Below, one piece after another: positions 4,385 to 64,000 of a stretch of 64,000 nt of DNA (positions within the stretch are counted from its first letter, which is position 1; every line of letters begins with the position of its first letter). Source of the stretch: an uncultured Dehalococcoidia bacterium (GTDB taxonomy: Bacteria > Chloroflexota > Dehalococcoidia > Lucifugimonadales > UBA3495); NCBI GenBank assembly GCA_958296225.1, contig OY282456.1, positions 2,955,328 to 3,019,327 of the forward strand, given 5' to 3'. The translations under genes and the position numbers were made by a program. The notes below the pieces were generated by a model, which worked only from the letters and a program-made list of their open reading frames with translations, was not told the DNA's origin and made no database searches.

Positions 4385-5134
4385 TTATTCCGCCGCCAGG
4401 ATTGCCTCGTCAATCTCATACCAGAGTATTTCGCCGTTGGCGATTGCGTCCGTTAGTTCGTTGTCAATGCGAACCCCGGTCAGCGCGGGGTGGCTGGGCT
4501 GCCCGGTGAACCGGGTCATCAGTCCGGCGTTGCGCACCGCGCGCTGGCGGTCATAGTCGGTGAGGGTGTATGACGCCTCAATGGCAATGTAGTTGATTGC
4601 CCCGTCCGCGTCGGCAACCTCGATAATAAAGTCGGCCCGGCGGAAACTTCTCAGGTCGGGGCGGGGTATGTCTCTGGTATCCTGGCTCAAGCTCAGGTCC
4701 ATAATCTCGGATTTGGTCAGGGTATGCCGGTATGTGAACCCCATTTCAGCGACAATCCCCCGGACTTCCTCCTGCGTGGCGACAGAGGTAAAGCGCCCTC
4801 GGATATAGCCGATGTCGTCCTGGATGCGTCGCTGGCTCTGCATGATAGCTTCCAGCCCCTCTTTCAGCTCGGCTACGTCGGCTTGCGTTCTGGCCTGGCT
4901 CTCTTTCAGCTCGGCTACGTCGGATTCCAGCCGGGCTTGCCCTTCTTTCAGCTCGGCTACGTCGGATTCCAGTCGGTCCAGCCGCGCGTTGGTTGCGGCG
5001 GCGAATTCGGCGAAACGTTCCGGCAGCTCAAGCAGTTCTTTGCTCAGCAGCAGCGCCCGCAGCGTGTCAACCCAATCCGGGTTCTCGCGCAGTATTCTGG
5101 CAAAATCGTCAATGGTGTTGATGGTAGTGGTCAT
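4385..5134 (-). CDS. coiled-coil repeat protein with putative PD-(D/E)XK-like C-terminal domain
   Basis: 42-bp/14-aa repeats (RLESDVAELKEGQA); ADFIIE...IAIEAS motif. Confidence 0.7.
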   Translation of the reverse strand: MTTTINTIDDFARILRENPDWVDTLRALLLSKELLELPERFAEFAAATNARLDRLESDVAELKEGQARLESDVAELKESQARTQADVAELKEGLEAIMQSQRRIQDDIGYIRGRFTSVATQEEVRGIVAEMGFTYRHTLTKSEIMDLSLSQDTRDIPRPDLRSFRRADFIIEVADADGAINYIAIEASYTLTDYDRQRAVRNAGLMTRFTGQPSHPALTGVRIDNELTDAIANGEILWYEIDEAILAAE

Positions 5135-8289: not shown

Positions 8290-9456
8290 ATGACGGTTCC
8301 GGCACGGATGAAGTTTGGCGTTTTTATGGCTCCGTTCCACCGGGTGGGGGAGAACCCGACCCTGGCGCTGGAGCGCGACCTGGAGCTGCTGCAATGGCTG
8401 GACCAGCTTGGCTTCGATGAAGCCTGGATTGGCGAGCATCACAGCGCCGGCTGGGAGACCATCGCCTCGCCCGAGGTTTTCATGGCTACCGCCGCCGAGC
8501 GCACCCGCAACCTGCGGCTGGGCACCGGCGTCGTCAGCCTGCCCTACCACCATCCCTATATGGTTGCCAACCGCATGGTGCTGCTGGACCACCTGACGCG
8601 CGGGCGGGTGATGCTGGGCGTCGGCCCCGGCGCGCTGGCCTCCGACGCCTATATGTTCGGCATTGACCCGGCCCGCCAGCGCGAGATGATGGACGAATCC
8701 TTGGGCGTCATCAAGCGGCTGATGGACAGCGCGGAGCCGTACACCTACCAGAGCGACTGGTTCGAGTTGCACGATGCCCACCTGCAACTGCGGCCTTATC
8801 AGCAGCCCTTCCCGCTGGTGGTGGCGTCGGTGCAGTCGCCGGCCGGCGTAACTACGGCCGGCAAGTACGGCGCCGGGGTAATCTCGCTCAGCGTGCCGCG
8901 CGATATGGTGCGCTCGACCAGCCTGAAAGACCAGTGGGCCATCGCCGAGGAAACCGCCGCCGAGCACGGCCAGACCGTCAAGCGCGAGGAATGGCGTCTC
9001 TCGGTAGGCGTGCATCTGGCCGAGAGCAAGAAGCAGGCGCAGGAGGACATCCGCGAGGGTTCGGCGCGGGTAGTTACCGAGTACTTTGGCAACACGCTGG
9101 GCCACGAAGTGCCGGACGTGCCGCGGGACCAGATTGTGGACTTTATGACTGACAACAAGCAGTGGATTGTGGGCACTCCCGACGACTGCATCCAGCGCAT
9201 CAACGAGTTGCAGGAGCTGTCCGGCGGCTTCGGCGGGATGCTGGTGCGGGTTGAGGACTGGGCGCCGCGGGACAAGCTGCATCGTTCTTACGAGCTGATG
9301 GCCCGCTACGTGATGCCCCAGTTCCAGGGCACGCTGGCCGGCATCCAGACCTCGCAGCAGTGGGCATCCGACCTGCGGGAGACCTTGCAGGTCAACCGGC
9401 GCGCCGGCCTGGACCGCGCCACCCAGGCTTATGAGGAAGGCCGGCAGCAGCGCTAA
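8290..9456 (+). CDS. LLM-class flavin-dependent monooxygenase
   Basis: GFDEAWIGEHHSAG, LGTGVVSLPYHHP, LDHLTRGR. Confidence 0.92.
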   Translation: MTVPARMKFGVFMAPFHRVGENPTLALERDLELLQWLDQLGFDEAWIGEHHSAGWETIASPEVFMATAAERTRNLRLGTGVVSLPYHHPYMVANRMVLLDHLTRGRVMLGVGPGALASDAYMFGIDPARQREMMDESLGVIKRLMDSAEPYTYQSDWFELHDAHLQLRPYQQPFPLVVASVQSPAGVTTAGKYGAGVISLSVPRDMVRSTSLKDQWAIAEETAAEHGQTVKREEWRLSVGVHLAESKKQAQEDIREGSARVVTEYFGNTLGHEVPDVPRDQIVDFMTDNKQWIVGTPDDCIQRINELQELSGGFGGMLVRVEDWAPRDKLHRSYELMARYVMPQFQGTLAGIQTSQQWASDLRETLQVNRRAGLDRATQAYEEGRQQR

Positions 9457-11185: not shown

Positions 11186-11219
11186 CGCATCCGGCATAAC
11201 GCGAAAGGAGACGGTGGAG

Positions 11220-11576
11220 ATGACGGAGCAGGAATACGCGCAATGCGCGCGCCGGTTTCTGGTGGATTCCGACCGGGAGTTTGCGGCCGGCGAACGGCAG
11301 CAGGCATCGGAAAAGCTGTACGGCGCGGCCAACGAAGCTTTGACCGCCATCGCGGTGCAGCGCGGCTGGAAACACCGCACGCACCGGGATATGAAAAATG
11401 CCGCCCAAAGGTTGGCGGACGAGCACGATGACCCGTTTCTGTCCACCGGGTTCAACACGGCGGAAAAATTTCACAAGAACTTTTTCCACGACGAGATGGA
11501 GGACTACGAAATTGAGGTCGACCGCCCCTATGTTCATCGGTACGTCAACCGCGTGCTGGCGCTGATGGTGGGCTGA
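11220..11576 (+). CDS. PaREP1/HEPN-like small protein, copy 1
   Basis: QASEKLYGAA, H...AEKFHKNF pattern. Confidence 0.7.
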   Translation: MTEQEYAQCARRFLVDSDREFAAGERQQASEKLYGAANEALTAIAVQRGWKHRTHRDMKNAAQRLADEHDDPFLSTGFNTAEKFHKNFFHDEMEDYEIEVDRPYVHRYVNRVLALMVG

Positions 11577-11666
11577 CGCTGTAATGCTCACCCTTTCTGT
11601 AGCCATACCGTCGCTCGGAATGGCGTGAGGACATCATTTGGCATAACGCAACCGGCATAACGCAAG

Positions 11667-12023
11667 ATGACGGAGCAGGAATACGCACAATGCGCGCGCC
11701 GGTTTCTGGTGGATTCCGACCGGGAGTTTGCCGCCGGCGAACGGCAGCAGGCATCGGAAAAGCTGTACGGCGCGGCCAACGAGGCGTTGACCGCCATCGC
11801 GGTGCAACGCGGCTGGAAACACCGCACGCACCGCGATATGAAAAATGCCAGCCAACGGTTGTCGGAGGAGTGCGGTGACCCGTTTCTAGTGGGTGGGTTC
11901 GCCATCGCCGAAAAATTTCACAAGAATTTTTTTCACGACGAGATGGAGGACTACGAAATTGAGATTGACCGTCCAGCGGTACACGAATACGTCAACCGGG
12001 TGCTGGCGCTGATGGCAGGCTGA
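11667..12023 (+). CDS. PaREP1/HEPN-like small protein, copy 2 (tandem duplicate)
   Basis: First ~60 aa identical to copy 1. Confidence 0.7.
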   Translation: MTEQEYAQCARRFLVDSDREFAAGERQQASEKLYGAANEALTAIAVQRGWKHRTHRDMKNASQRLSEECGDPFLVGGFAIAEKFHKNFFHDEMEDYEIEIDRPAVHEYVNRVLALMAG

Positions 12024-12076
12024 CGCTGTAATGCTCACCCTTTCTGTAGCCATACCGTCGCAAGGAGCAATGGACT

Positions 12077-12986
12077 ATGCAGGGTCAGGTGCTTGATTAT
12101 TCCATTCAAACCAACGAGGGAATTATCTCCGGCGTGGACGGCTCCCGCTATACTTTCAGCGGCTCCGAATGGCGTGAGGCGGTCACGCCATCTCGTGGTA
12201 TGACTGTTGACTTTGAAACGGAGGGGGCAAGGGCCGTTGGCGTGTACCGCGCTTTGGGGCGGGGCGCCGCCAACGCAACCCCAACCGACGCTGAACCCGG
12301 CGGGACTGCCGCGATGCAGGGGCAAGTGCTGGATTACTCCGTTCAGGCTAACGAGGGCGTCATCTCCGGGGATGACGGCATACGCTATACCTTCGCTGGC
12401 TCGGAATGGCGTGAGGACGTCATTCCCGCGCGCGGAATGCGTGTTGACTTTGCAGTGGATGGCAGTAACGCCGCCGGGGTGTACCGGGTATTGGGACGGG
12501 GCCAGTTCGCTGCGAACATTCAGGATTCGGTGAGTAGCGCTTTCTCCCGCTCCGGCGCAACCGGCTCCGAAATTACCCCGGGCAATCGGTTCGTTGGCTA
12601 CTTGGTCGAAGTAGGCATCAGGATTGGGCTTTCGATAGTCACCTGGTTGGTAATCGGACTGCCCCTTGGCATTGTCACCTTGGGCTCCGGCCTGTTTTTG
12701 ATGCCGATAATTGCGAGCGCAATGCTCTTCGGGTACTACTGGTTGATGTACGCCACACAGAGCGAGGGTCTTGGACACAAGGCAATCGGAGCGACTCTGA
12801 TTAACTACGCTACCGGGGAACCGCTGTCTATGGGCAGAGCCGCTGCGCGCCGGGGCGGTCACTGTCGGCTCGTGGCTTTTCCCCATTCCAACCCTGATTA
12901 ACGGCATAATGGTGCTTGCCAATGACGACCGCCGGCACCTCTACGACCTCATCGCCGGCACGCAGGTGGTGCGGAAGGAACGATAA
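12077..12986 (+). pseudogene. tandem cold-shock-like OB domains plus RDD domain protein, frameshifted near 12850
   Basis: Two MQGQVLDYS..NEG.ISG.DG.RYTF repeats; RDD tail RHLYDLIAGTQVV lies in the +1 frame ending at TAA 12986. Confidence 0.7.
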
Positions 12987-19248: not shown

Positions 19249-19818
19249 ATGGAAATAACGCCGTTGCAAGCCTTTTACGGCAGCATGATGATAGTGATGC
19301 TGGCCGCGCTGTTGACCATCGTTTTCCGTCAGGGGCAGTCGCCGACCCGCAAGGAAATGCACGATTTGCACCAGCAGCTGCGCGAGGAGCTGCGCGCCGA
19401 AATCAGGGAGGCCGTCAATGCGGCGGTCAGGGAAATCTGCGCCGATATGAGTCGTCAGATAGAGGGCGTGAATCACCGGATAGACGCCTTGGAAGAGAGC
19501 GTGAATCACCGAATAGACGCCTTGGAAGCCAGCGTGAATCACCGGATAGACGCCGTGAATTACCGGATAGACGCCGTGGAAGCCAGCGTGAATCACCGGA
19601 TAGACGCCTTGGGAGAGAGCGTGAATCACCGAATAGACAGCGTGAATTACCGGATAGACGCCTTGGAAGAGAGCGTGAATTACCGGATGGACGGATTGCG
19701 GCAGGACATCACCCGGGTGCTGAACGCGCTGGCCAATCACGAGCATATTGATGGGCGCGTGATGATTACCGCCCAACCCGATGCCGAACCGTCCCCGGCT
19801 GTTGCCGCTGACAACTAG
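19249..19818 (+). CDS. membrane-anchored coiled-coil repeat protein with HxH tail
   Basis: N-terminal TM helix; 33-bp and 21-bp repeats (VNHRIDALEES/VNYRIDA); ALANHEH. Confidence 0.7.
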   Translation: MEITPLQAFYGSMMIVMLAALLTIVFRQGQSPTRKEMHDLHQQLREELRAEIREAVNAAVREICADMSRQIEGVNHRIDALEESVNHRIDALEASVNHRIDAVNYRIDAVEASVNHRIDALGESVNHRIDSVNYRIDALEESVNYRMDGLRQDITRVLNALANHEHIDGRVMITAQPDAEPSPAVAADN

Positions 19819-24337: not shown

Positions 24338-25850
<1,513 letters not shown>

Positions 25851-34813: not shown

Positions 34814-34953
34814 GCGACTGGCAGCGTTCCGTTTCAGGTGGTTTGGCTATTCCTCTGAGGTAGTGGGTGAGGTGGTGGGCTGGGTTCATTGGCGATGCTC
34901 CTTGCTGGTTCAGGCTATCGGGGTTAGGGTGGCTGTCGGGATGCGGTGTGCGG

Positions 34954-35176
34954 GCCAGAGGTTACCGGTCATTGTCAGCCCCACGGCCGGGGGATTTACG
35001 CAAAGTTTTGCTCCGATGGTTCGTGAACTACGCTTTAAGGGCGCAGCCACGCAGCGCGGTGGCAGTCGCTGTTGGCCGGTTAGACCGTTCTCGCGTAAGC
35101 ATTGGACGAGGGGTCTCCACGACGCCGGTATGCGATTTTGTGCTGACTGGCCGTTGATGACCGGTTGACCTCTGGC
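34954..35176 (-). ncRNA. putative structured ncRNA carried by the MITE, copy 1
   Basis: Closing long-range helix 34954-34972/35157-35176; downstream of promoter 35204-35232; much better conserved between copies than the flanks. Confidence 0.55.
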
Positions 35177-35203
35177 GGGACTGAGAATCACGTGATAGAT
35201 TGC

Positions 35204-35232
35204 AGTATAGTACCGATGTTCGTTGTTGTCAA
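35204..35232 (-). promoter_or_regulatory. near-consensus sigma70 promoter inside the MITE
   Basis: TTGACA-N17-TATACT; hexamers conserved in copy 2 while the spacer varies. Confidence 0.8.
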
Positions 35233-35248
35233 AGGGGGGGTGTCAGTG

Positions 35249-36324
35249 GGTAGCGTTCCGTTTTAGGTGGTTTAGTTGTAGGATGGCTGCAAATACCGGC
35301 TCCGGAGTCAGAGGGAGGGGCGCTGCCATGGGACTGCTTTACGACTTGGAAACCCGGCTGGAGCAGCAGATACCCGTCCAGCTGCAACAGTCGTTGCAGC
35401 TGGCTTTGGATGATTACCAGCCCCTCTGCCCGGACTGCGGTTTAGCGATGCACCGGCATCATCGGTACGCCCGTACTATCACCACCCGCTACGGGGCAAT
35501 TCGGTTGCAGATGCCCGTGTTCCGCTGCGGCCAGTGCGGCCGGATGGCCAGCGGCGCCGACCTGCTGGGCGAAGCAGAACGTCATCAAAGGTACTCAAAA
35601 AAACCCGCGAACTAGCCATCAAACTGGCGGCGCAGGGGTTGAGCTACGCCCAGAGCGGCCAGTGGTTCGGGTTCGTTAAAAGCACCATGTGCCGCTGGCT
35701 GCGACGGGAGCCAATAGCACAGCCGGAGTTGCGGGGGCGGGTGTTGGAGCTCGACGGATTGTGGACCAGAACGCGGGCCGGAGCTACGGAATTGAAGGTC
35801 ATCCGAGATGAAAACGGCGTGGCTCTGGGGGCCTTTGGAGGTTGGGAAGAGGTGATTGACCAGGCCTGGCGGCAGGGAGCGGTTCAGCCGGCGCATCTGG
35901 TGAGCGACGGGGATGCGGCCATCGCCGCGGGCATCCGGATGGTCTATGGCCGGCAAGCGCCCCACCAGCTCTGCCATTTTCACCTGCTGCGGGAGTACCG
36001 GCGGAACATTGGGGAGACTGGTTGGCGGGAGGCGCGGCGACTGCTGGCGTCGTCCGGCCTGGCGGAGGCCCGGGGCTATGCGGCGCGGGTGGCCGCGTTG
36101 ACCGGAGGCCAGGGGACGTACTGGTGTCGGAAAGCCCTGGAGAAAGGACTGCGCCATTTAGCCACCGGGCAAGCGCGATTCAAGACAACCTCCCCTTTGG
36201 AACGGCACAACCGGGAGTTGCGGCGGCGGGAAAAGATGGGCACCGTATGGACACCGCACAACCTGCTGGTATTGCTCCAAAACCGGGGCCTGCTCAACCA
36301 AACCACCTAAAACGGAACGCTACC
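35249..36324 (+). mobile_element. insertion sequence, IS256/Mutator-like superfamily, with -1 frameshift
   Basis: 30-bp IRs with 1 mismatch (GGTAGCGTTCCGTTTTAGGTGGTTT); 8-bp TSD TGTCAGTG at 35241-35248 and 36325-36332. Confidence 0.9.
35328..36310 (+). CDS. DDE transposase made of two ORFs joined by a -1 frameshift at A7C (35597-35604)
   Basis: Zn ribbon CPDC..CGQC; ELDG, VSDG, QLCHFH, TTSPLERHNRELRRR motifs. Confidence 0.8.
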
Positions 36325-36579
36325 TGTCAGTGGGCAGGGGCAAAGTGCGGTCGGTGGGTTTTGCGGACGCCGGAGCGGGAGCGCTACCCTTCTCCCAACC
36401 CTCTCCCGCAAGGGGAGAGGGCTTTAATGACTTTGCAAAACCCCGACCGCCGGCAACGGAACGCTACCTGAAGGGACTTCGCGTCTTGACCGTACTGGCG
36501 GCGGCCCCTAGAATGCCGGCAACCGGCGCGGGGCATCCGGGCCGTCAGGTGCAGGTTCCCCCGTGGTGTGCAGGTTTCT

Positions 36580-50438: not shown

Positions 50439-50732
50439 ATGGGAACCACTTTGACTGGTGAGGAAATCGCCATTATCAGCATCGGCGTCATCATAGTCAT
50501 TGCTGTTATTGTGGCCCACGTTGCCCAGTTACGGCGTACCAGCAAATTGCCGACACGCGAGGAGTTCAATGCGCTGGTTGGAGAGGTGAGTACGTTGAAA
50601 GTGGAAGTTGCCGCGATGAATGCTCGGATTGACGCCGCTATCCGCGCCAGTGAAGCGCGCATCATCAAGGCCCTGATTAACCACCGCCACCCGGAGCCGG
50701 CCGGCCCGCCGGTCTTTACCGAACCTCTCTAG
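50439..50732 (+). CDS. TM plus coiled-coil plus HxH protein, array copy 1
   Basis: Paralog of copies 2-4; ends ALINHRHPEPAGPPVFTEPL. Confidence 0.75.
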   Translation: MGTTLTGEEIAIISIGVIIVIAVIVAHVAQLRRTSKLPTREEFNALVGEVSTLKVEVAAMNARIDAAIRASEARIIKALINHRHPEPAGPPVFTEPL

Positions 50733-50770
50733 CCCACGGCGCTGTCCAGCAGGAAAGAGGAAAGCAGGAT

Positions 50771-51187
50771 ATGGGAATCACCGTAAGCGGTCAAATGATT
50801 GCCATTCTGGTGTCCATCATCAGCATCGGCGTCATCATAATCATCGCCATTATTGTGGCCCACATTGCCCAGGTGCGGCGTACCAGCAAGCTGCCCACCC
50901 GCAGCGAGTTCAATGCGCTGGTCGGAAAGGTCAGCGAGTTGCAAGTAGCAGTTGCCGCAGTGAATGGCCGGATTGATTCAGTGCATGGCCGAATTGACAC
51001 GGTGGTTGGTCGGATTGACGCAGTAAGTGACCGGATTGACGCGGTAAATGACCGGATTGACGCGCTCCCCACCCAGGAAAGCATTGACGCCGCCATCCGC
51101 GCCAGTGAAGCACGCATCATCAAGGCCCTGATTAACCACCGCCACCCGGAGCCGGCCGGCCCGCCGGTCTTTACCGAACCCCTCTAG
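50771..51187 (+). CDS. TM plus coiled-coil plus HxH protein, array copy 2
   Basis: Five ..RID heptads. Confidence 0.75.
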   Translation: MGITVSGQMIAILVSIISIGVIIIIAIIVAHIAQVRRTSKLPTRSEFNALVGKVSELQVAVAAVNGRIDSVHGRIDTVVGRIDAVSDRIDAVNDRIDALPTQESIDAAIRASEARIIKALINHRHPEPAGPPVFTEPL

Positions 51188-51221
51188 CCCACGGCGATGT
51201 CCGGTTGGAAAGGCAAGATAT

Positions 51222-51638
51222 ATGGGAATCACCGTAAGCGGTCAAATGATTGCCATTCTGGTGTCCATCATCAGCATCGGCGTCATCATAATCATCGCCA
51301 TCATTGTGGCCCACATTGCCCAGGTGCGGCGTACCGGCAAGCTGCCCACCCGCAGTGAGTTCAATGCGCTGGTCGGAAAGGTCAGCGAGTTGCAAGTAGC
51401 AGTCGCCGCAGTGAATGGTCGGATTGATTCAGTGCATGGCCGAATTGACACGGTGGTTGGTCGGATTGACGCAGTAAGTGACCGGATTGACGCGGTAAAT
51501 GACCGGATTGACGCGCTCCCCACCCAGGAAAGCTTGGACGCCGCCATCCGCGCCAGCGAAGCGCGCATTATCAAGGCCCTGATTAACCACCGCCACCCGG
51601 AGCCGGCCGGCCCGCCGGTTTTTACCGAACCCCTTTAG
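51222..51638 (+). CDS. TM plus coiled-coil plus HxH protein, array copy 3
   Basis: Near-identical to copy 2 (451-bp period). Confidence 0.75.
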   Translation: MGITVSGQMIAILVSIISIGVIIIIAIIVAHIAQVRRTGKLPTRSEFNALVGKVSELQVAVAAVNGRIDSVHGRIDTVVGRIDAVSDRIDAVNDRIDALPTQESLDAAIRASEARIIKALINHRHPEPAGPPVFTEPL

Positions 51639-51672
51639 CCCACGGCGCTGTCCGGTTGGAAAGGCAAGATAT

Positions 51673-52026
51673 ATGGGAATCACCGTAAGCGGTCAAATGA
51701 TTGCTATTCTGGTGTCCATCATCAGCATCGGCGTCATCATAATCATCGCCATCATTGTGGCCCACATTGCCCAGGTGCGGCGTATCAGCAAGTTGCCCAC
51801 CCGCGGCGAGTTCAATGCGCTGGTCGGAAAGGTCAGCGAGTTGCAAGTAGCAGTTGCCGCAGTGAATGGTCGGATTGACGCGGTAAATGACCGGATTGAC
51901 GCGCTCCCCACCCAGGAAAGCCTGGACGCCGCCATCCGCGCCAGTGAAGCGCGCATCATCAAGGCCCTGATTCACCACCGCCACCCGGAGCCGGCCGGCC
52001 CGCCGGTCTTTACCGAACCCCTCTAG
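51673..52026 (+). CDS. TM plus coiled-coil plus HxH protein, array copy 4
   Basis: Two heptads. Confidence 0.75.
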   Translation: MGITVSGQMIAILVSIISIGVIIIIAIIVAHIAQVRRISKLPTRGEFNALVGKVSELQVAVAAVNGRIDAVNDRIDALPTQESLDAAIRASEARIIKALIHHRHPEPAGPPVFTEPL

Positions 52027-52760
52027 CCCACGGCGATGTCCAGCAGGATGCCGCCCAGCTCCTCCGGCGCGGTGACCATCGGGTCGTGCCCGGTATTGAT
52101 GTGGTGAACGCCCCAGCCGGCGGCGGCGGCGCGTTCGGCTACCGAGTCGAACCCGGATTCGCGGCACAGGACGAACTCGCGGCGCAAGGCGGCGGCCTCC
52201 GGTCGTCCCGTGCGCACCGGCTGGGCAAAAGTCAGCGTGGGTTGTGGGGATAGTCGGGGCAGCATAAACGCCTGGTCGCGCGGGTCGGTGATGGCCCAGC
52301 GCTGGGCGATTTCCGCTCCGGTGGTGGGCGGCGGCATAAATGGTTCGCCATCGGCTATGTGCTGCCGTATGCGCCCCACGAACTCCGGCCCGCGCACTGC
52401 TTCCAGCTGGTCAACCATCGCTTCGCCGTCGGCCGGCGCTACTCCGTTGACATAAACGAGGGCGGCGATGCGCGGCGCGGCCAGTTCGGCGACGCCGGTA
52501 ATCACCATGCCGGCGTAAGCGTGGGCGACCAGGATGGCATTTTCCAAGTCGTGCGATTCCAGCAGGCTAAGGATGTCCTGAATGTGCAAGTCCAGGTTCA
52601 GCACTGCCGGCGGCAGCAGCGCCGCCAGGTGCTGCCGGCCGCCCAGGCCGGTCAGGCTGGGCGTCAGCGCCAAGTGGCCGGCCTGGCGGAGCAGGGGCGC
52701 CGTTTTCCACCAGCACCAGCCGCCGTGCCAGGCGCCGTGAATCAGTACGAAAGTTGCCAT
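52023..52760 (-). CDS. alpha/beta hydrolase (esterase-like)
   Basis: FVLIHGAWHGGWCW, AHAYAG (Ser replaced by Ala), TGHDPM. Confidence 0.85.
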   Translation of the reverse strand: MATFVLIHGAWHGGWCWWKTAPLLRQAGHLALTPSLTGLGGRQHLAALLPPAVLNLDLHIQDILSLLESHDLENAILVAHAYAGMVITGVAELAAPRIAALVYVNGVAPADGEAMVDQLEAVRGPEFVGRIRQHIADGEPFMPPPTTGAEIAQRWAITDPRDQAFMLPRLSPQPTLTFAQPVRTGRPEAAALRREFVLCRESGFDSVAERAAAAGWGVHHINTGHDPMVTAPEELGGILLDIAVG

Positions 52761-58144: not shown

Positions 58145-58412
58145 CGCACTTCCCCTGGCCAAGCGGCGTCCGTCATCGTGTTGCCGGCAGATTATAACCC
58201 GGCAGAGGCGATTGCGTAACCGTTCCGGCAGTGGCGCAGCCCGTGCGCAAATGTCACTGGTGCGCTGCCGAGGGGGGCAGGCAGCGTTCCGTTTCGGGTG
58301 GTTTGGCTATTCCTCTGGGGTGGTGGGTGAGGTGGTGGGCTGGGTTCATTGGCGATGCTCCTTGCTGGTTCAGGGGGTCGGGGTTCGGCGGTTGGCGGGA
58401 TATGGTGTGCGG

Positions 58413-58637
58413 GCCAGAGGTTACCGGTCATTGTCAGCCCCACGGCCGGGGGATTTACGCAAAGTTTTGCTCCGATGGTTCGTGAACTGCGCTTTTAAGG
58501 GCGCAGCCACGCAGCGCGGTGGCAGTCGCTGTTGGCCGGTTAGACCGTACTCGCGTAAGCATTGGACGAGGGGTCTCCACGACGCCGGTATGCGATTTTA
58601 GTGCTGACTGGCCGTTGACGACCGGTTGACCTCTGGC
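58413..58637 (-). ncRNA. putative structured ncRNA carried by the MITE, copy 2
   Basis: Same closing helix and core as copy 1; promoter at 58665-58693. Confidence 0.55.
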
Positions 58638-58664
58638 TGGACTGGGATTCACGTGATAGATTGC

Positions 58665-58693
58665 AGTATAGTACCGATGTTCGCGGTTGTCAA
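58665..58693 (-). promoter_or_regulatory. sigma70 promoter inside MITE copy 2
   Basis: TTGACA-N17-TATACT. Confidence 0.8.
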
Positions 58694-58852
58694 AGGGAGT
58701 TGGTCAGCAAAGTGCGGGCGGCGGGTTTTGCGGGCGCCGGAGCGAGAGTGCTGCCTCTCTCCCAACCCTCTCCCACGAGGGGAGGGGGCTTTAATGACTT
58801 TGCAAAGCCCCGACCGCCGGCAACGGAACGCTGCCGAGGGGGGCAATGGGGG

Positions 58853-58881
58853 TTGACAGAAACGCTATTTTGTGCTAACTT
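58853..58881 (+). promoter_or_regulatory. putative promoter for the tail-tube-like genes
   Basis: TTGACA-N17-TAACTT with TG extension. Confidence 0.55.
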
Positions 58882-58976
58882 CTAGGTACGTTGAGCCAGA
58901 GCGACAGCGTTGCCGCCAATAGAGGGCCGCCAAACCTGCGCCGGAGCCAACAAATTACATCGGAGGTGAGCCACTC

Positions 58977-61313: not shown

Positions 61314-61804
61314 GGACGCGGAAAGCCGGGGCCGTTTTGCGGCTGATTGCTGCAAAGCGGCCCAATGCAAAGGCCGCGCTCAAAATGATGATTACCATTT
61401 TGGAAGCGGTGATGATTGAGGCGTTCATCCCGCCGCTGAACGATAAGGGCGGCGACCTGATGGGTACGATGTATCGCCAGATTGAAGACCCGTCGCTGGT
61501 TGAGCAGCGCGATGTGGAACTGCGTCGGATGGTAGGGCGGGCGTTGGCGGGCTGACTCCAAGACGCCCGTTCACTACGATAGCCGCCGTATCAGATTGCC
61601 CCCAATTGATGCAAGGCAGACCGGAGAAACGACGGCCAGCCCGCGCTTGATACGGGGCCACTGCGGCGGCCGGGGCGGGTTGATTGACAGGATATGCTGC
61701 CGGGGGCAGAATGGGCCTCAATCCCGGGGCGGCCCATCGCCCCGTCCGCTGCCACTTGGATGGGAATGCACCGGCTGCATTCTCATATAGAGGAGGACCT
61801 GATT

Positions 61805-62974
61805 ATGGCGTTTCCCGAGCGAATGAGGTTTGGAATCTTCCTCGGCCCGTTCCACCGCGTTGGCGAAAACCCGACCCTGGCCATTGAACGCGACCTGGAA
61901 CTGGTGGAATGGCTGGACAAGCTGGGGTTCGATGAGGCTTGGGTTGGGGAGCATCACAGCGCCGGCTGGGAGATTATCTCATCCCCGGAGGTGTTCATCG
62001 CCGCCGCCGCCCAGCGCACCAGCCGCATCAAGCTGGGCACCGGCGTGGTCAGCCTGCCTTATCACCATCCGCTGATGGTGGCCAACCGCATGGTGCAACT
62101 GGACCACATGACCTACGGGCGGGTGCTTTTCGGCGTCGGCCCCGGCGCGCTGCCCGGCGACGCCTATATGATGGGTATTCCCCACGAACTGCAGCGGGAG
62201 CGTATGGACGAGTCTTTGGGCATTATCCTGCGCCTTTTCACGGAGACGGAGCCCATCACCTACCGGAGCGACTGGTTTGAGCTGAAAGAGGGCCTGCTCC
62301 AGCTGCGGCCCTACCAGCGGCCCTATATGCACACCGCCGTGGCTTCGGTGCAATCCCCGGCCGGCGTAACCCTGGCCGGCAAACACGGCTGTTCGGTCTT
62401 GACCATCACCGTGCCCCGAGACCCCTCCGCCGGGCCGTCGGACCTCAAGGGACTGTGGAGCATCGCCGAAGAGTCCGCCGCCGAGCACGGGCAGACCATG
62501 AACCGCGACGACTGGCGGCTGGTGCTGCCCTGCCACCTGGCCGAATCCAGGGAGGAAGCCCTGGCCGACGCCCGCCTCGGCGCCGGCCGCTACCTGCGGG
62601 AATACAGCGAGGGCACCAATGGCCGCCAGCCGGTTTTCGATGGCCCGCTGGACAAGGTAATTGACCACATGGCCGACGCCGGCAGCTGGATTATCGGCAC
62701 GCCCGACGACTGCATCGCCGCCATCGAGCGGCTGGGGGAGCAGAGCGGCGGCTTTGGCGCTTTCCTGGTCCAGACCATCGACTGGGCGCCCCGGGAGAAG
62801 ATGCTGCGCAGCTACGAACTGATGGCCCGCTACGTTATGCCCCACTTCCAGGGCAGCATCCTCAGCACTCAGGCGTCCAATCAGTGGGCCCGAGAGCGGC
62901 AGGATGACCTGGTCAGCGGCCGGGTGCGCGCCATCGACCGGGCCCGGCAGGTGTACGCGGAACGCGCCGGCTAA
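61805..62974 (+). CDS. LLM-class flavin-dependent monooxygenase, paralog of 8290-9456
   Basis: GFDEAWVGEHHSAG, LGTGVVSLPYHHP. Confidence 0.92.
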   Translation: MAFPERMRFGIFLGPFHRVGENPTLAIERDLELVEWLDKLGFDEAWVGEHHSAGWEIISSPEVFIAAAAQRTSRIKLGTGVVSLPYHHPLMVANRMVQLDHMTYGRVLFGVGPGALPGDAYMMGIPHELQRERMDESLGIILRLFTETEPITYRSDWFELKEGLLQLRPYQRPYMHTAVASVQSPAGVTLAGKHGCSVLTITVPRDPSAGPSDLKGLWSIAEESAAEHGQTMNRDDWRLVLPCHLAESREEALADARLGAGRYLREYSEGTNGRQPVFDGPLDKVIDHMADAGSWIIGTPDDCIAAIERLGEQSGGFGAFLVQTIDWAPREKMLRSYELMARYVMPHFQGSILSTQASNQWARERQDDLVSGRVRAIDRARQVYAERAG

Positions 62975-63919: not shown

Positions 63920-64000
63920 GGCAGCGTTCCGTTTCAGGTGGTTTGGTTATTCCTCTGCGGTGGTGGGCTGGGTTCATTGGCAATGCGTCCTTTTGCTGGT
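63920..64000. mobile_element. MITE-like element copy 3 (left end only, truncated by the window)
   Basis: GGCAGCGTTCCGTTTCAGGTGGTTTGG.TATTCCTCTG... matches copies 1 and 2. Confidence 0.8.

What the first reader, a model, noticed from the sequence alone, without database searches (positions are those of the whole stretch)
34820..35232. Mobile cassette carrying its own promoter and a conserved ~223-nt structured RNA
Seen: the MITE (copies at 34820, 58280, 63920) has no credible long ORF but holds TTGACA-N17-TATACT on the minus strand, with hexamers conserved while the spacer mutates. The predicted transcript has a ~19-bp closing helix (GCCAGAGGUCAACCGGUCAU/AUGACCGGUAACCUCUGGC), GUCAGC/GCUGAC, a non-nested ACGGCC/GGCCGU pairing (possible pseudoknot), UUACGCGAG/UUUGCGUAA and GCCAC/GUGGC stems. 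By eye the core differs at about 5 positions between copies, versus about 10 in the adjacent 40 nt. Inference: a functional ncRNA spread by an IS256-like transposase. From memory, short segments (GCCAGUC..AAAA, AGCAAAACUU, GUGGGG..GACC) recall raiA-motif RNA; this is unverified.
Basis: partly seen in the sequence, partly recalled or inferred. Interest (0 to 1): 0.82.

Follow-up and report, generated by a model that had tools for sequence, protein, structure and literature searches.

The report
Transposon-borne structured RNA gene family
A small mobile DNA element, present about 70 times in this bacterial genome, carries a promoter and a well-folded RNA gene of a kind not yet catalogued, which in related bacteria sits in front of a gene for a putative RNA-cutting (HEPN-like) protein.

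Summary
Window 34820-35232 is part of a 556-bp MITE (complete copy 58280-58835) with about 70 copies in this 3.97-Mb genome. It has 9-bp target duplications and shares its terminal repeats with a 1076-bp IS256/Mutator-like IS, one copy of which is nested at 35249-36324.

On the minus strand, TTGACA-N17-TATACT is invariant in 69 of 69 copies while its spacer varies. The 224-nt core has about 7-fold lower diversity than its flanks.

The new point is that the RNA is not MITE-specific. The family has 109 copies here in several diverged subfamilies, and 9-35 copies in each of 5 other Dehalococcoidia MAGs. In 58 of 78 related loci it lies upstream of, and co-oriented with, a ~230-aa gene without annotation whose N-terminal half looks HEPN/PaREP1-like.

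The MITE is a deletion derivative that keeps promoter, RNA, Shine-Dalgarno site and about 12 codons.

Function is inferred only. The most likely role is an RNA partner (antitoxin-like or regulatory) of the HEPN-like protein, as RCd22 is for AbiF. No expression data exist.

The parts
34820..35248 (-). MITE copy 1, left part. It holds the left terminal repeat (GGCAGCGTTCCGTTTCAGGTGG from 34820), the ORF stub (ATG 34889->34887, AAGGAG 34903->34898), the RNA core, the 5' leader and the promoter.
34954..35176 (-). RNA core of copy 1, from the P1 5' strand (35176) to the P1 3' strand (34954), 223 nt.
   Evidence: Full-length match of the family models R1 and R2 to this copy (genome 2990272-2990525, 160.4 bits).
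35204..35232 (-). Promoter of copy 1: -35 TTGACA (35232->35227), 17-nt spacer, -10 TATACT (35209->35204).
35249..36324 (+). Nested 1076-bp IS with GGTAGCGTTCC.../...GGAACGCTACC ends and an 8-bp duplication TGTCAGTG (35241-35248 and 36325-36332). Its two overlapping frames are 35328-35615 (zinc-finger part) and 35534-36310 (DDE part).
36325..36468 (.). MITE copy 1, right arm: REP-like hairpin and the right terminal repeat ending ...AACGGAACGCTACC at 36468.
   Evidence: (family D11)
58280..58835 (-). Complete MITE copy 2 (556 bp), flanked by GAGGGGGGCA on both sides (58270-58279 and 58836-58845).
58413..58637 (-). RNA core of copy 2 (P1 to P1', 225 nt), with P2-P8, the hairpin HP and the pseudoknot ACGGCC x GGCCGU.
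   Evidence: (genome 3013731-3013986, 158.7 bits)
58665..58693 (-). Promoter of copy 2: TTGACA-17-TATACT.
58347..58363 (-). Shine-Dalgarno site AAGGAG (58363->58358) and ATG (58349->58347). They open MNPAHH..., which is homologous to the N-terminus of the HEPN-like protein. The frame is cut short by the left terminal repeat.
63920..64000 (-). MITE copy 3, cut by the window end. The full copy is genome 3019247-3019770.

Best explanation
SHOWN:
- The stretch is part of a non-autonomous transposon (MITE) mobilised in trans by an IS256/Mutator-like IS of the same genome.
- Its cargo is the 5' end of a two-part module: a sigma-70-type promoter, a structured RNA of about 250-300 nt (224-nt core), a Shine-Dalgarno site and the first ~12 codons of a ~230-aa gene.
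- The RNA has a closing helix P1, a nested P2-P3, an inner domain P4-P8 and a hairpin whose loop forms a pseudoknot with ACGGCC.
- The protein has a HEPN/PaREP1-like N-terminal domain.
- The RNA belongs to a family absent from Rfam 15. It is multi-copy in this genome and in other Dehalococcoidia-labelled MAGs, and is normally found upstream of that gene on the same strand.

INFERRED (my odds about 0.4):
- The RNA is made as the leader of the HEPN-like gene's transcript and binds its protein product. It would neutralise or regulate the protein in cis and in trans, as the abiF-motif RNA RCd22 does for the HEPN toxin AbiF.
- The ORF-less MITE copies would then be extra RNA genes kept under selection because their RNA is still used.
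For: MITE:
- Shared terminal repeats with an IS present in 18 near-full copies.
- Exact flanking direct repeats in 13 of 26 complete copies: 11 of 9 bp, one of 10 and one of 8. With small offsets allowed, 14 of 26 flank pairs share an exact 8-mer and 6 more have one mismatch, against 2 and 5 of 650 mismatched flank pairs.
- Pfam Transposase_mut scores 24.6 bits against a cut-off of 21.

RNA fold, structure-blind MAFFT alignment of 36 sequences:
- 88.2% of cells are paired, against 81.2+/-0.3 in shuffles (0 of 500 reach it) and 30-37% when partners are slid.
- 137 cells have changes on both sides, against 46.5+/-5.1.

RNA fold, 47 model-aligned sequences:
- 48 of 63 pairs have changes on both sides, against 33.6+/-2.4 (0 of 500).

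Pseudoknot (not part of the model):
- ACGGUC/GACCGU in 5 sequences of one MAG.
- The U.G intermediate in 3 other sequences.

Constraint in the 69 MITE copies: pi 0.019 against 0.11-0.14, and promoter hexamers with 0 changes in 828 bases.

Promoters at the same place but of different sequence in each subfamily.

Link to the gene:
- The RNA is on the ORF's strand upstream of it in 58 of 78 loci, from 23 assemblies.
- Paralogous units share homology only from just before the promoter to just after the stop codon.

Protein:
- AlphaFold pLDDT 89.5.
- The four best Foldseek hits are HEPN proteins (2hsb, 1ufb, 1o3u, 1wol; target-normalised TM 0.71-0.80), and 2q00 (PaREP1 group) is at rank 10.
- Pfam PaREP1 at E 0.0024 on one paralogue.

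Precedent: RCd22/AbiF. I read the abstract and section 7 of PMC12373285.
Against: - No transcription data exist. No RNA run is listed, so expression, ends and strand are unshown.
- The HEPN assignment is weak: best Foldseek E-value 5e-3, no Pfam hit above threshold, and no canonical Rx4-6H motif (the conserved motif is R-A-A-S-H).
- PADLOC gives no hit.
- No intrinsic terminator lies between RNA and ORF in the one locus scanned.
- The RNA has no tandem repeats, unlike classical type III antitoxins.
- RNA genes outnumber full-length ORFs 109 to 3 here (one of the three is frameshifted) and about 4-9 to 1 in five other genomes. That is more than a 1:1 partner needs.
- The two intact ORFs here sit behind another subfamily (F2c), not the MITE's subfamily.
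- The leader-tail helix P0 seen in other subfamilies is at background level in the 3 MITE copies tested.
- G.U against A.C counts do not favour the proposed strand across families (72 against 121 cells).
Confidence: 0.5

Rival explanations
1. A purely cis-acting leader (riboswitch or protein-binding attenuator) that controls translation of the HEPN-like gene through the alternative tail pairings T1/T2 of helix P0. Under this reading the MITE and other ORF-less copies are young relics without function.
For: - The layout promoter - structured leader - Shine-Dalgarno site - ORF has no terminator in between.
- The 5' leader can pair with either of two tandem tail motifs just upstream of the AAGGAG: 8-12 contiguous pairs in 23 of 47 sequences, against shuffle means of 4.0-6.9.
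- Many invariant unpaired nucleotides and a variable-length P8 resemble an aptamer.
Against: - ORF-less copies outnumber ORF-linked ones in all six genomes examined.
- In the MITE copies even private mutations are depleted in the core: 1.24/kb against 4.5/kb, P 3e-7. Stem variants in P8 are wobble or compensatory and the promoter is invariant. Decaying relics would not show this.
- The downstream neighbour is co-oriented in only 44 of 70 MITE copies, using crude gene calls.
Confidence: 0.25
2. The RNA and the HEPN-like protein form a self-mobilising unit, with the RNA as guide, template or scaffold for its own spread. IS110 bridge RNA and IS605/IscB omega RNA are the analogies, and ORF-less copies would be the non-autonomous members.
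For: - The ~1.15-kb unit (promoter + RNA + ORF) is multi-copy, with homology ending sharply at both ends.
- RNA-only copies outnumber RNA+ORF copies.
- The C-terminal domain has invariant or near-invariant D, H, C, C and H residues.
Against: - The MITE's mobility is already explained by IS256-like ends and 9-bp duplications.
- The same type of end lies downstream of the ORF in 3 of 11 loci inspected (L083, L084, L093).
- No copy-specific (guide-like) segment was seen. Variation is at subfamily level.
- No recombinase or nuclease family matches the protein.
Confidence: 0.08
3. A self-processing RNA (ribozyme) or other protein-independent large ncRNA. Its link to the ORF would be only co-transcription.
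For: - Size, a pseudoknot, invariant junction nucleotides and ten helices.
- ORF-less copies are conserved.
Against: - No match to any ribozyme family in Rfam.
- The RNA-ORF linkage persists down to 30-40% protein identity, though with weak RNA hits there.
Confidence: 0.07
4. A DNA-level feature (transposase-binding or cruciform-forming sequence), with no functional RNA.
For: - The closing helix is a perfect inverted repeat in DNA.
- Both strands fold about equally well (z -3.0 and -2.8).
- G.U against A.C counts do not tell the strand.
Against: - A conserved promoter with an invariant -35 and -10 sits at a fixed distance in every subfamily, with different sequences in each.
- The RNA has the same strand as the ORF in 58 of 58 loci that have it.
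- The non-nested pseudoknot covaries.
- The RNA occurs outside IS256-type ends.
Confidence: 0.03

Closest known systems
abiF-motif RNA RCd22 with the HEPN (Abi_2) toxin AbiF of Clostridioides difficile (PMC12373285; abstract and section 7 read)
   Same: A structured ncRNA with its own sigma-A/sigma-70-type promoter lies directly upstream of, and is co-transcribed with, a HEPN-superfamily gene. In that system the RNA neutralises the protein by direct binding, in cis and in trans.
   Different: - RCd22 is about 100-130 nt, has two short abiF motifs, and a terminator precedes the ORF.
- Here the RNA is about 250-300 nt with ten helices and a pseudoknot. No terminator was found and Rfam RF03085 does not match.
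- The protein is HEPN-T/PaREP1-like with an extra C-terminal domain.
- Toxicity and binding are untested here.
Type III toxin-antitoxin systems (ToxIN, CptIN, TenpIN; recalled, not read here)
   Same: The RNA gene is upstream of a putative RNase gene on one strand, and the RNA is pseudoknotted.
   Different: - Their antitoxins are tandem arrays of ~36-nt repeats processed by the toxin.
- Here there is one large unit and no tandem repeat.
- The toxin fold differs.
raiA motif and other large orphan ncRNAs (OLE, ROOL, GOLLD; recalled)
   Same: Large, intricately folded bacterial RNAs of unknown function, some of them on mobile elements.
   Different: No covariance-model match to raiA or to any other Rfam family. 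The gene association and the taxa differ.
MITEs with functional cargo, such as Correia elements with promoters (recalled, not read here)
   Same: A short non-autonomous element with terminal repeats and target duplications, in high copy number, that brings a promoter with it.
   Different: The cargo here is a complete structured RNA gene under purifying selection, plus the start of a protein gene. I found no description of such a case.
Transposon-encoded guide or scaffold RNAs: IS110 bridge RNA, IS605/IscB omega RNA (recalled)
   Same: A structured RNA encoded inside a mobile element, next to the element's protein gene.
   Different: - No guide-like variable segment was seen.
- The protein is neither a DEDD nor a RuvC enzyme.
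- Rfam HEARO does not match.
- The element's mobility is explained by a DDE transposase acting in trans.

Membership tests
MITE (non-autonomous DNA transposon) | Short, with no transposase gene | tested here: met
   The element is 556 bp. No ORF is conserved between copies, and indel polymorphisms break the frames.
MITE (non-autonomous DNA transposon) | Terminal inverted repeats shared with an autonomous IS of the same genome | tested here: met
   GGCAGCGTTCC.../...GGAACGCTGCC in the MITE against GGTAGCGTTCC.../...GGAACGCTACC in the 1076-bp IS, which has 18 near-full copies.
MITE (non-autonomous DNA transposon) | Target-site duplications and high copy number | tested here: met
   13 of 26 complete copies have exact adjacent direct repeats (11 of 9 bp). 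Most of the rest differ by one mismatch. There are 69-70 copies.
IS256 / Mutator-type IS (the mobilising element) | DDE transposase of the Mutator/IS256 family | tested here: inconclusive
   Pfam PF00872 scores 24.6 bits against a cut-off of 21, E 1.4e-5. NCBIfam IS256 scores only 39.4 against a cut-off of 150. The N-terminal part weakly matches ISKra4 and ISH6.
IS256 / Mutator-type IS (the mobilising element) | 8-9-bp target duplication (recalled family trait) | tested here: met
   8 bp for the nested IS. Mostly 9 bp for the MITE.
raiA motif RNA (Rfam RF03072) | Match to the family covariance model | tested here: not met
   No hit at the gathering score, at E<=10 on the MITE, or at E<=1 on 13 related loci.
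abiF motif RNA (Rfam RF03085) | Match to the family covariance model | tested here: not met
   Same scans.
abiF motif RNA (Rfam RF03085) | Upstream of, and co-oriented with, a HEPN-superfamily gene | tested here: met
   58 of 78 loci, all on the ORF's strand.
Type III toxin-antitoxin | Antitoxin RNA built of tandem repeats | tested here: not met
   TRF finds none in 58200-58900, and there is no internal direct repeat.
Type III toxin-antitoxin | Terminator between RNA and toxin gene | tested here: inconclusive
   None on the RNA strand in L098 950-1560 or in the MITE.
Type III toxin-antitoxin | Toxic endoribonuclease neutralised by direct RNA binding | not testable with these tools
   Needs expression and binding assays.
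HEPN superfamily (the protein) | Four-helix HEPN fold | tested here: inconclusive
   The top four Foldseek hits are HEPN proteins (target-normalised TM 0.71-0.80), but the E-values are 5e-3 to 3e-2. The atlas leads point to HEPN and PaREP1 clusters at 0.86-0.89.
HEPN superfamily (the protein) | Rx4-6H catalytic motif | tested here: not met
   The conserved motif is R36-A-A-S-H40, that is Rx3H. Passages of PMC3710099 say that the PaREP1/8 group keeps the H but lacks the R.

The most novel reading that the evidence does not exclude
This is a new class of large pseudoknotted RNA that is the dedicated RNA partner of a HEPN-T-type protein. Its ORF-less copies, multiplied by an IS256-type transposon to about 100 expressed genes per genome, are kept by selection as a trans-acting pool: RNA-only immunity or anti-addiction against the HEPN protein. 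In the boldest form, the RNA-protein pair is itself an RNA-dependent mobile system.
Probability: 0.3. Interest if true: 0.88.

Novelty: new variant of a known kind. Interest (0 to 1): 0.72.

Why it matters
If transcribed as predicted, this is an uncatalogued, covariation-supported RNA of about 250-300 nt. It has a pseudoknot and is present at 9-109 copies per genome in a poorly studied group of Chloroflexota.

- It would extend the recently shown pairing of HEPN toxins with RNA antitoxins (AbiF/RCd22) to a second, unrelated RNA and to a different branch of HEPN proteins.
- It would be a clear case of a bacterial MITE amplifying a complete RNA gene that stays under purifying selection.
- The many natural variants give a ready-made alignment for structure work.

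Tried and rejected
- Rfam: nothing found beyond the 16S rRNA, two tRNAs and chance-level hits.
- blastn of the core in 400 sampled genomes of the phylum: only two ~32-nt chance-level matches.
- Covariance models: R1 in 150 phylum genomes and R2 in 150 class genomes gave no match outside the window's genome. These are samples, scored with stricter filters.
- Sequencing runs: no RNA holder is listed.
- The four runs laid (one sample) are DNA contigs. They say nothing on expression, starts or strand. Contigs break inside the repeat and core pieces have far higher word depth than the flanks, which the tool warns is not a copy number.
- Protein: no PADLOC hit, and no PDB relative by sequence (best E 1.8).
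- RNAalifold on MITE copies alone gave almost no covariation (1 of 65 pairs). On a mixed MAFFT alignment it gave only a partial fold.
- A naive all-against-all covariation scan was swamped by phylogenetic noise.
- G.U against A.C strand test: uninformative across families.
- Orientation relative to neighbouring genes, with crude GC3-based gene calls: downstream gene co-oriented in 44 of 70 F1 copies and 19 of 27 F2 copies. This is too weak to argue for a cis role.
- Helix P0: not detectable in the 3 MITE copies tested.
- Literature: no paper holds 'HEPN' + 'structured RNA' + 'Chloroflexi'. Nothing relevant appeared among the 15 listed for MITE / noncoding RNA / promoter / Dehalococcoidia. The 7 papers with 'PaREP1' mention no associated RNA in the listings and passages I saw. 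Supplements were not consulted.
- Weak R2 matches at the expected place in 4 of 14 loci of distant protein subfamilies, plus a 12-nt pseudoknot-loop match in 4 more. These are suggestive only.
Full report
WHAT IS AT THE COORDINATES

Window 34820-35232 is the left three quarters of a repeat found at 34820, 58280 and 63920.

The complete copy is 58280-58835 (556 bp; my searches used 58280-58836). It begins GGCAGCGTTCCGTTTC, ends AACGGAACGCTGCC, and is flanked on both sides by GAGGGGGGCA.

Copy 1 is interrupted. At 35249-36324 sits a 1076-bp IS with nearly the same ends (GGTAGCGTTCC.../...GGAACGCTACC) and an 8-bp duplication TGTCAGTG. The rest of the MITE follows at 36325-36468. Copy 3 runs off the window.

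The IS carries two overlapping frames. The first has a zinc-finger-like part with weak ISKra4/ISH6 matches. The second matches Pfam Transposase_mut (24.6 bits, cut-off 21) and NCBIfam IS256 (39.4 bits, far below its cut-off of 150).

The genome is one 3.97-Mb contig. It holds 18 near-full copies of the IS, and the two-frame layout was the same in 5 of 5 copies read.

Of the MITE, blastn finds 161 HSPs, and 69 copies span positions <=60 to >=410. Of 26 copies complete at both ends, 13 have exact adjacent direct repeats: 11 of 9 bp, one of 10 and one of 8. With small offsets allowed, 20 of 26 have an 8-mer repeat with at most one mismatch, against 7 of 650 mismatched flank pairs.

PROMOTER AND CONSTRAINT

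The only sigma-70-like site in 58200-58900 is on the minus strand: TTGACA-17-TATACT, 11 of 12 matches, 0.1 expected. Across 69 copies both hexamers are invariant (0 changes in 828 bases). In the spacer, 6 of 17 sites carry a minor allele in at least 5 copies.

The core (MITE 134-358) compares with its flanks as follows:
- Diversity pi is 0.019, against 0.137 (tail), 0.117 (leader), 0.134 (spacer) and 0.112 (right arm).
- Common polymorphisms occupy 9 of 223 core sites, against 47 of 185 flank sites (P 2e-10).
- Singletons are 1.24/kb against 4.5/kb (P 3e-7).

Copies are kin, and the flanks are richer in indels, so these P values overstate the case. The leader and spacer have no indels, however, and show the same contrast.

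Core polymorphisms sit in loops, or are wobble or compensatory changes in one hairpin, P8. There the pair types are UA 25, UG 4 and CG 1 at one pair, GC 27 and GU 3 at another, and so on. Indels at four core positions rule out a conserved reading frame.

THE RNA IS A FAMILY, NOT A MITE ODDITY

An nhmmer profile of the 69 cores found diverged relatives in the same genome:
- single copies at 3174067, 746797 and 3580895;
- a second family of about 30 copies (F2a, F2b, F2c).

The relatives share ACGGCCA, (G/A/U)UCAGC, AAxUCGC, ACCGGC, GCCAC and GCG(C/U)AAAxCC(U/C)CCGGCCGU(A/G)GGGCUGA. Their closing helix, however, has an entirely different sequence in each family. Each family also has its own -35/-10 pair at the same distance.

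A covariance model of mixed families (R2) finds 109 matches at E<=1e-5 in this genome, out of 150 candidates scored. By score band, 69 are of the MITE type, 31 of F2 type and 9 other.

Rfam 15 has no match for any of them, so the raiA lead fails.

LINK TO A PROTEIN GENE

Downstream of the RNA, the MITE keeps AAGGAG-N8-ATG AAC CCA GCC CAC CAC. This is homologous to the start of an ORF that follows the single-copy relative F1b (VNPTHHINR...). It is also homologous to two intact 237-240-aa ORFs that follow the two F2c copies (MGTVPHHQAQ...). A third ORF copy is frameshifted. Some MITE-type copies that lack the left repeat continue into 45-86 codons of this ORF.

The protein has 74 homologue clusters, all unannotated. 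The few that carry a source name are labelled Chloroflexota or Chloroflexi MAGs.

R2 finds the RNA in 58 of these 78 loci, from 23 assemblies. It is always on the ORF's strand and upstream, usually ending 140-170 nt before the start codon (R1 had found 42).

Of the 20 loci without a hit, 5 have fewer than 120 nt of upstream sequence. With filters off, 4 of 14 distant loci gave weak matches at the expected place.

Within a genome, paralogous units are alike only from just upstream of the promoter to just past the stop codon, about 1.15 kb.

RNA genes outnumber ORFs. In five other genomes the counts are 9, 33, 23, 35 and 12 RNA matches, against 1, 5, 6, 6 and 3 full-length ORF matches.

R2 found nothing in 150 sampled genomes of the window's class, and R1 nothing in 150 of its phylum. 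The family is therefore patchy.

STRUCTURE

I built the fold by hand on L085:1056-1313 and transferred it to alignments. It consists of:
- P1, the closing helix of 12 + 3 bp;
- the 5' strand of the pseudoknot, ACGGCC;
- P2 (AUCAGC/GCUGAU) and P3 (CGCU/AGCG; in the MITE, CGCA/UGCG);
- an inner domain with P4; P5 (9 bp with a conserved A.C); P6; P7 (whose loop holds GCCAC); and a variable-length P8;
- an A-rich conserved strand, GAAAAUGAGAGCNAAAAAC;
- a 3-bp hairpin HP whose loop CCGGCCGU pairs with ACGGCC.

On a structure-blind MAFFT alignment of 36 sequences:
- 88.2% of cells are paired, against 81.2+/-0.3 in shuffles (0 of 500 reach it) and 30-37% when partners are slid.
- 27 pairs and 137 cells have changes on both sides, against 20.9+/-2.0 and 46.5+/-5.1 (0 of 500 for each).

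On 47 model-aligned sequences, 48 of 63 pairs have double changes against 33.6+/-2.4, and the covariation score is 0.332 against 0.126. That alignment leans towards the nested helices. The pseudoknot was not in the model, though.

For the pseudoknot, five sequences of one MAG have ACGGUC/GACCGU. Three from other MAGs have the U.G intermediate. That is one independent compensatory event.

An outer helix P0 joins the first nucleotides of the predicted transcript (CGCAGGUGAUUG, CACAGGCGA, GUCAGGCGAA) to one of two tandem tail motifs (AAUC(G/A)CCUG(C/U/A)). It shows 8-12 contiguous pairs in 23 of 47 sequences, against shuffle means of 4.0-6.9. The base before CAGG co-varies with the base after CCUG. 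P0 is not detectable in the 3 MITE copies tested.

They conflict with the conserved P3/P6 and P7/P8.

The strand rests on three things: the promoter, the constant co-orientation with the ORF, and the wobble-type variants within the MITE. Across families, G.U against A.C counts do not help (72 against 121 cells), because two conserved A.C/C.A mismatches sit in P5 and P6.

THE PROTEIN

AlphaFold2 with 31 sequences gives pLDDT 89.5 and pTM 0.62. The model has a helical N-terminal domain (residues 4-122), a disordered linker and a small C-terminal domain.

The best Foldseek hits in the PDB are HEPN proteins: 2hsb, 1ufb, 1o3u and 1wol, with target-normalised TM 0.71-0.80 and E-values of 5e-3 to 3e-2. 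HepT toxins follow, and 2q00 is at rank 10.

Pfam PaREP1 matches one paralogue below threshold, at E 0.0024. Passages of PMC3710099 place PaREP1/8 and 2hsb in the HEPN-T group and cite PDB 2q00 for it.

Invariant residues include H6, H7, Q8, R36, S39, H40, R82, R110 and C197. Near-invariant ones include D181, H183, C195 and H198. There is no canonical Rx4-6H motif.

PADLOC and a PDB sequence search give nothing.

HOW IT MOST LIKELY WORKS

Shown:
- a MITE carrying a promoter and an RNA gene;
- an RNA fold with covariation;
- purifying constraint on the ORF-less copies;
- a conserved upstream position relative to a HEPN-like gene.

Inferred: the RNA is the protein's RNA partner. The closest precedent is RCd22, an abiF-motif RNA with its own sigma-A promoter directly upstream of the HEPN toxin gene abiF. 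It is co-transcribed with the gene and neutralises the toxin by direct binding, in cis and in trans (PMC12373285, abstract and section 7).

This reading explains why ORF-less copies with intact promoters stay conserved. I give it about 0.4. The rivals are:
- a purely cis leader: 0.25;
- an RNA-dependent mobility system: 0.08;
- a ribozyme or protein-independent RNA: 0.07;
- a DNA-level feature: 0.03.

The large excess of RNA genes over ORFs, the weak HEPN evidence, the absence of a terminator and the absence of any expression data all weigh against over-confidence.

NOVELTY

No Rfam family matches, and the searches found no paper describing this RNA. The design (structured RNA upstream of a HEPN gene) has one recent precedent, and MITEs are ordinary. 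I therefore rate it a new variant of a known kind, with a real chance of being more.

In 3 of 11 loci inspected from other MAGs (L083, L084, L093), an IS256-type right end with the same sub-terminal repeats lies downstream of the ORF. The RNA's promoter region resembles such an end. The module may therefore ride on this transposon family more widely, but I did not follow this up.

Noticed in passing
window 24339-25850 (-): A complete bacterial 16S rRNA gene (1519.9 bits).
   Followed up: no
window 50470-52048; 11218-12066; 12077-12502; 19448-19708; 4855-4990: Long tandem arrays with periods of about 451, 447, 237, 33/21 and 42 nt. They are probably repeat-domain coding sequences.
   Followed up: no
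window 8290-9380 and 61805-62904: A diverged duplicate (71-80% identity) overlapping the 426-aa ORF at 61694-62974.
   Followed up: no
window 58734-58795 and 36365-36427; genome 1897167-1897344, 2923273-2923632, 2487335-2487707: The right arm of the MITE holds a REP-like hairpin (CTCTCCCAACCCTCTCCC...GGGGAGRGGGC). The same hairpin also occurs alone and in short tandem runs elsewhere in the genome.
   Followed up: partly
window 35328-36310 and 17 other IS copies: The IS keeps two overlapping frames (zinc-finger part and 258-aa DDE part) in 5 of 5 copies read. This may be a programmed frameshift or two genes.
   Followed up: partly
L083, L084, L093 about 2330-2400; L084, L085, L093 about 990-1050: The sub-terminal repeats (ATCCTGTCCATCC...CATCCATGCAA) and IS256-type right end found downstream of the ORF resemble the sequence just upstream of, and within, the RNA promoter (...CATCCATGCCAA..CCCCTTGCCC..CAGAACGCC). 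The promoter may be a fossil transposon end.
   Followed up: partly
genome 143355-143626, 881667-881936, 2442894-2443165: A third, more distant RNA subfamily (46-48 bits with R2; P2 is GUCGG/CCGAC). No HEPN-like ORF lies within 1.6 kb downstream.
   Followed up: partly
L051 48-251 (-) (genome about 1016447-1016650): Two tRNA genes lie next to an F2 RNA copy.
   Followed up: no
genome 3173900-3174300 (upstream of F1b); 2324800-2325000 and 1673350-1673500 (upstream of the F2c copies): Tiny MITEs (~160 bp) with the same type of terminal repeats (GGTAGCGTTCCGCTTTAGGTGG... and GGTAGCGTTGCAATTTAGGTGG...) lie upstream of several RNA copies.
   Followed up: no
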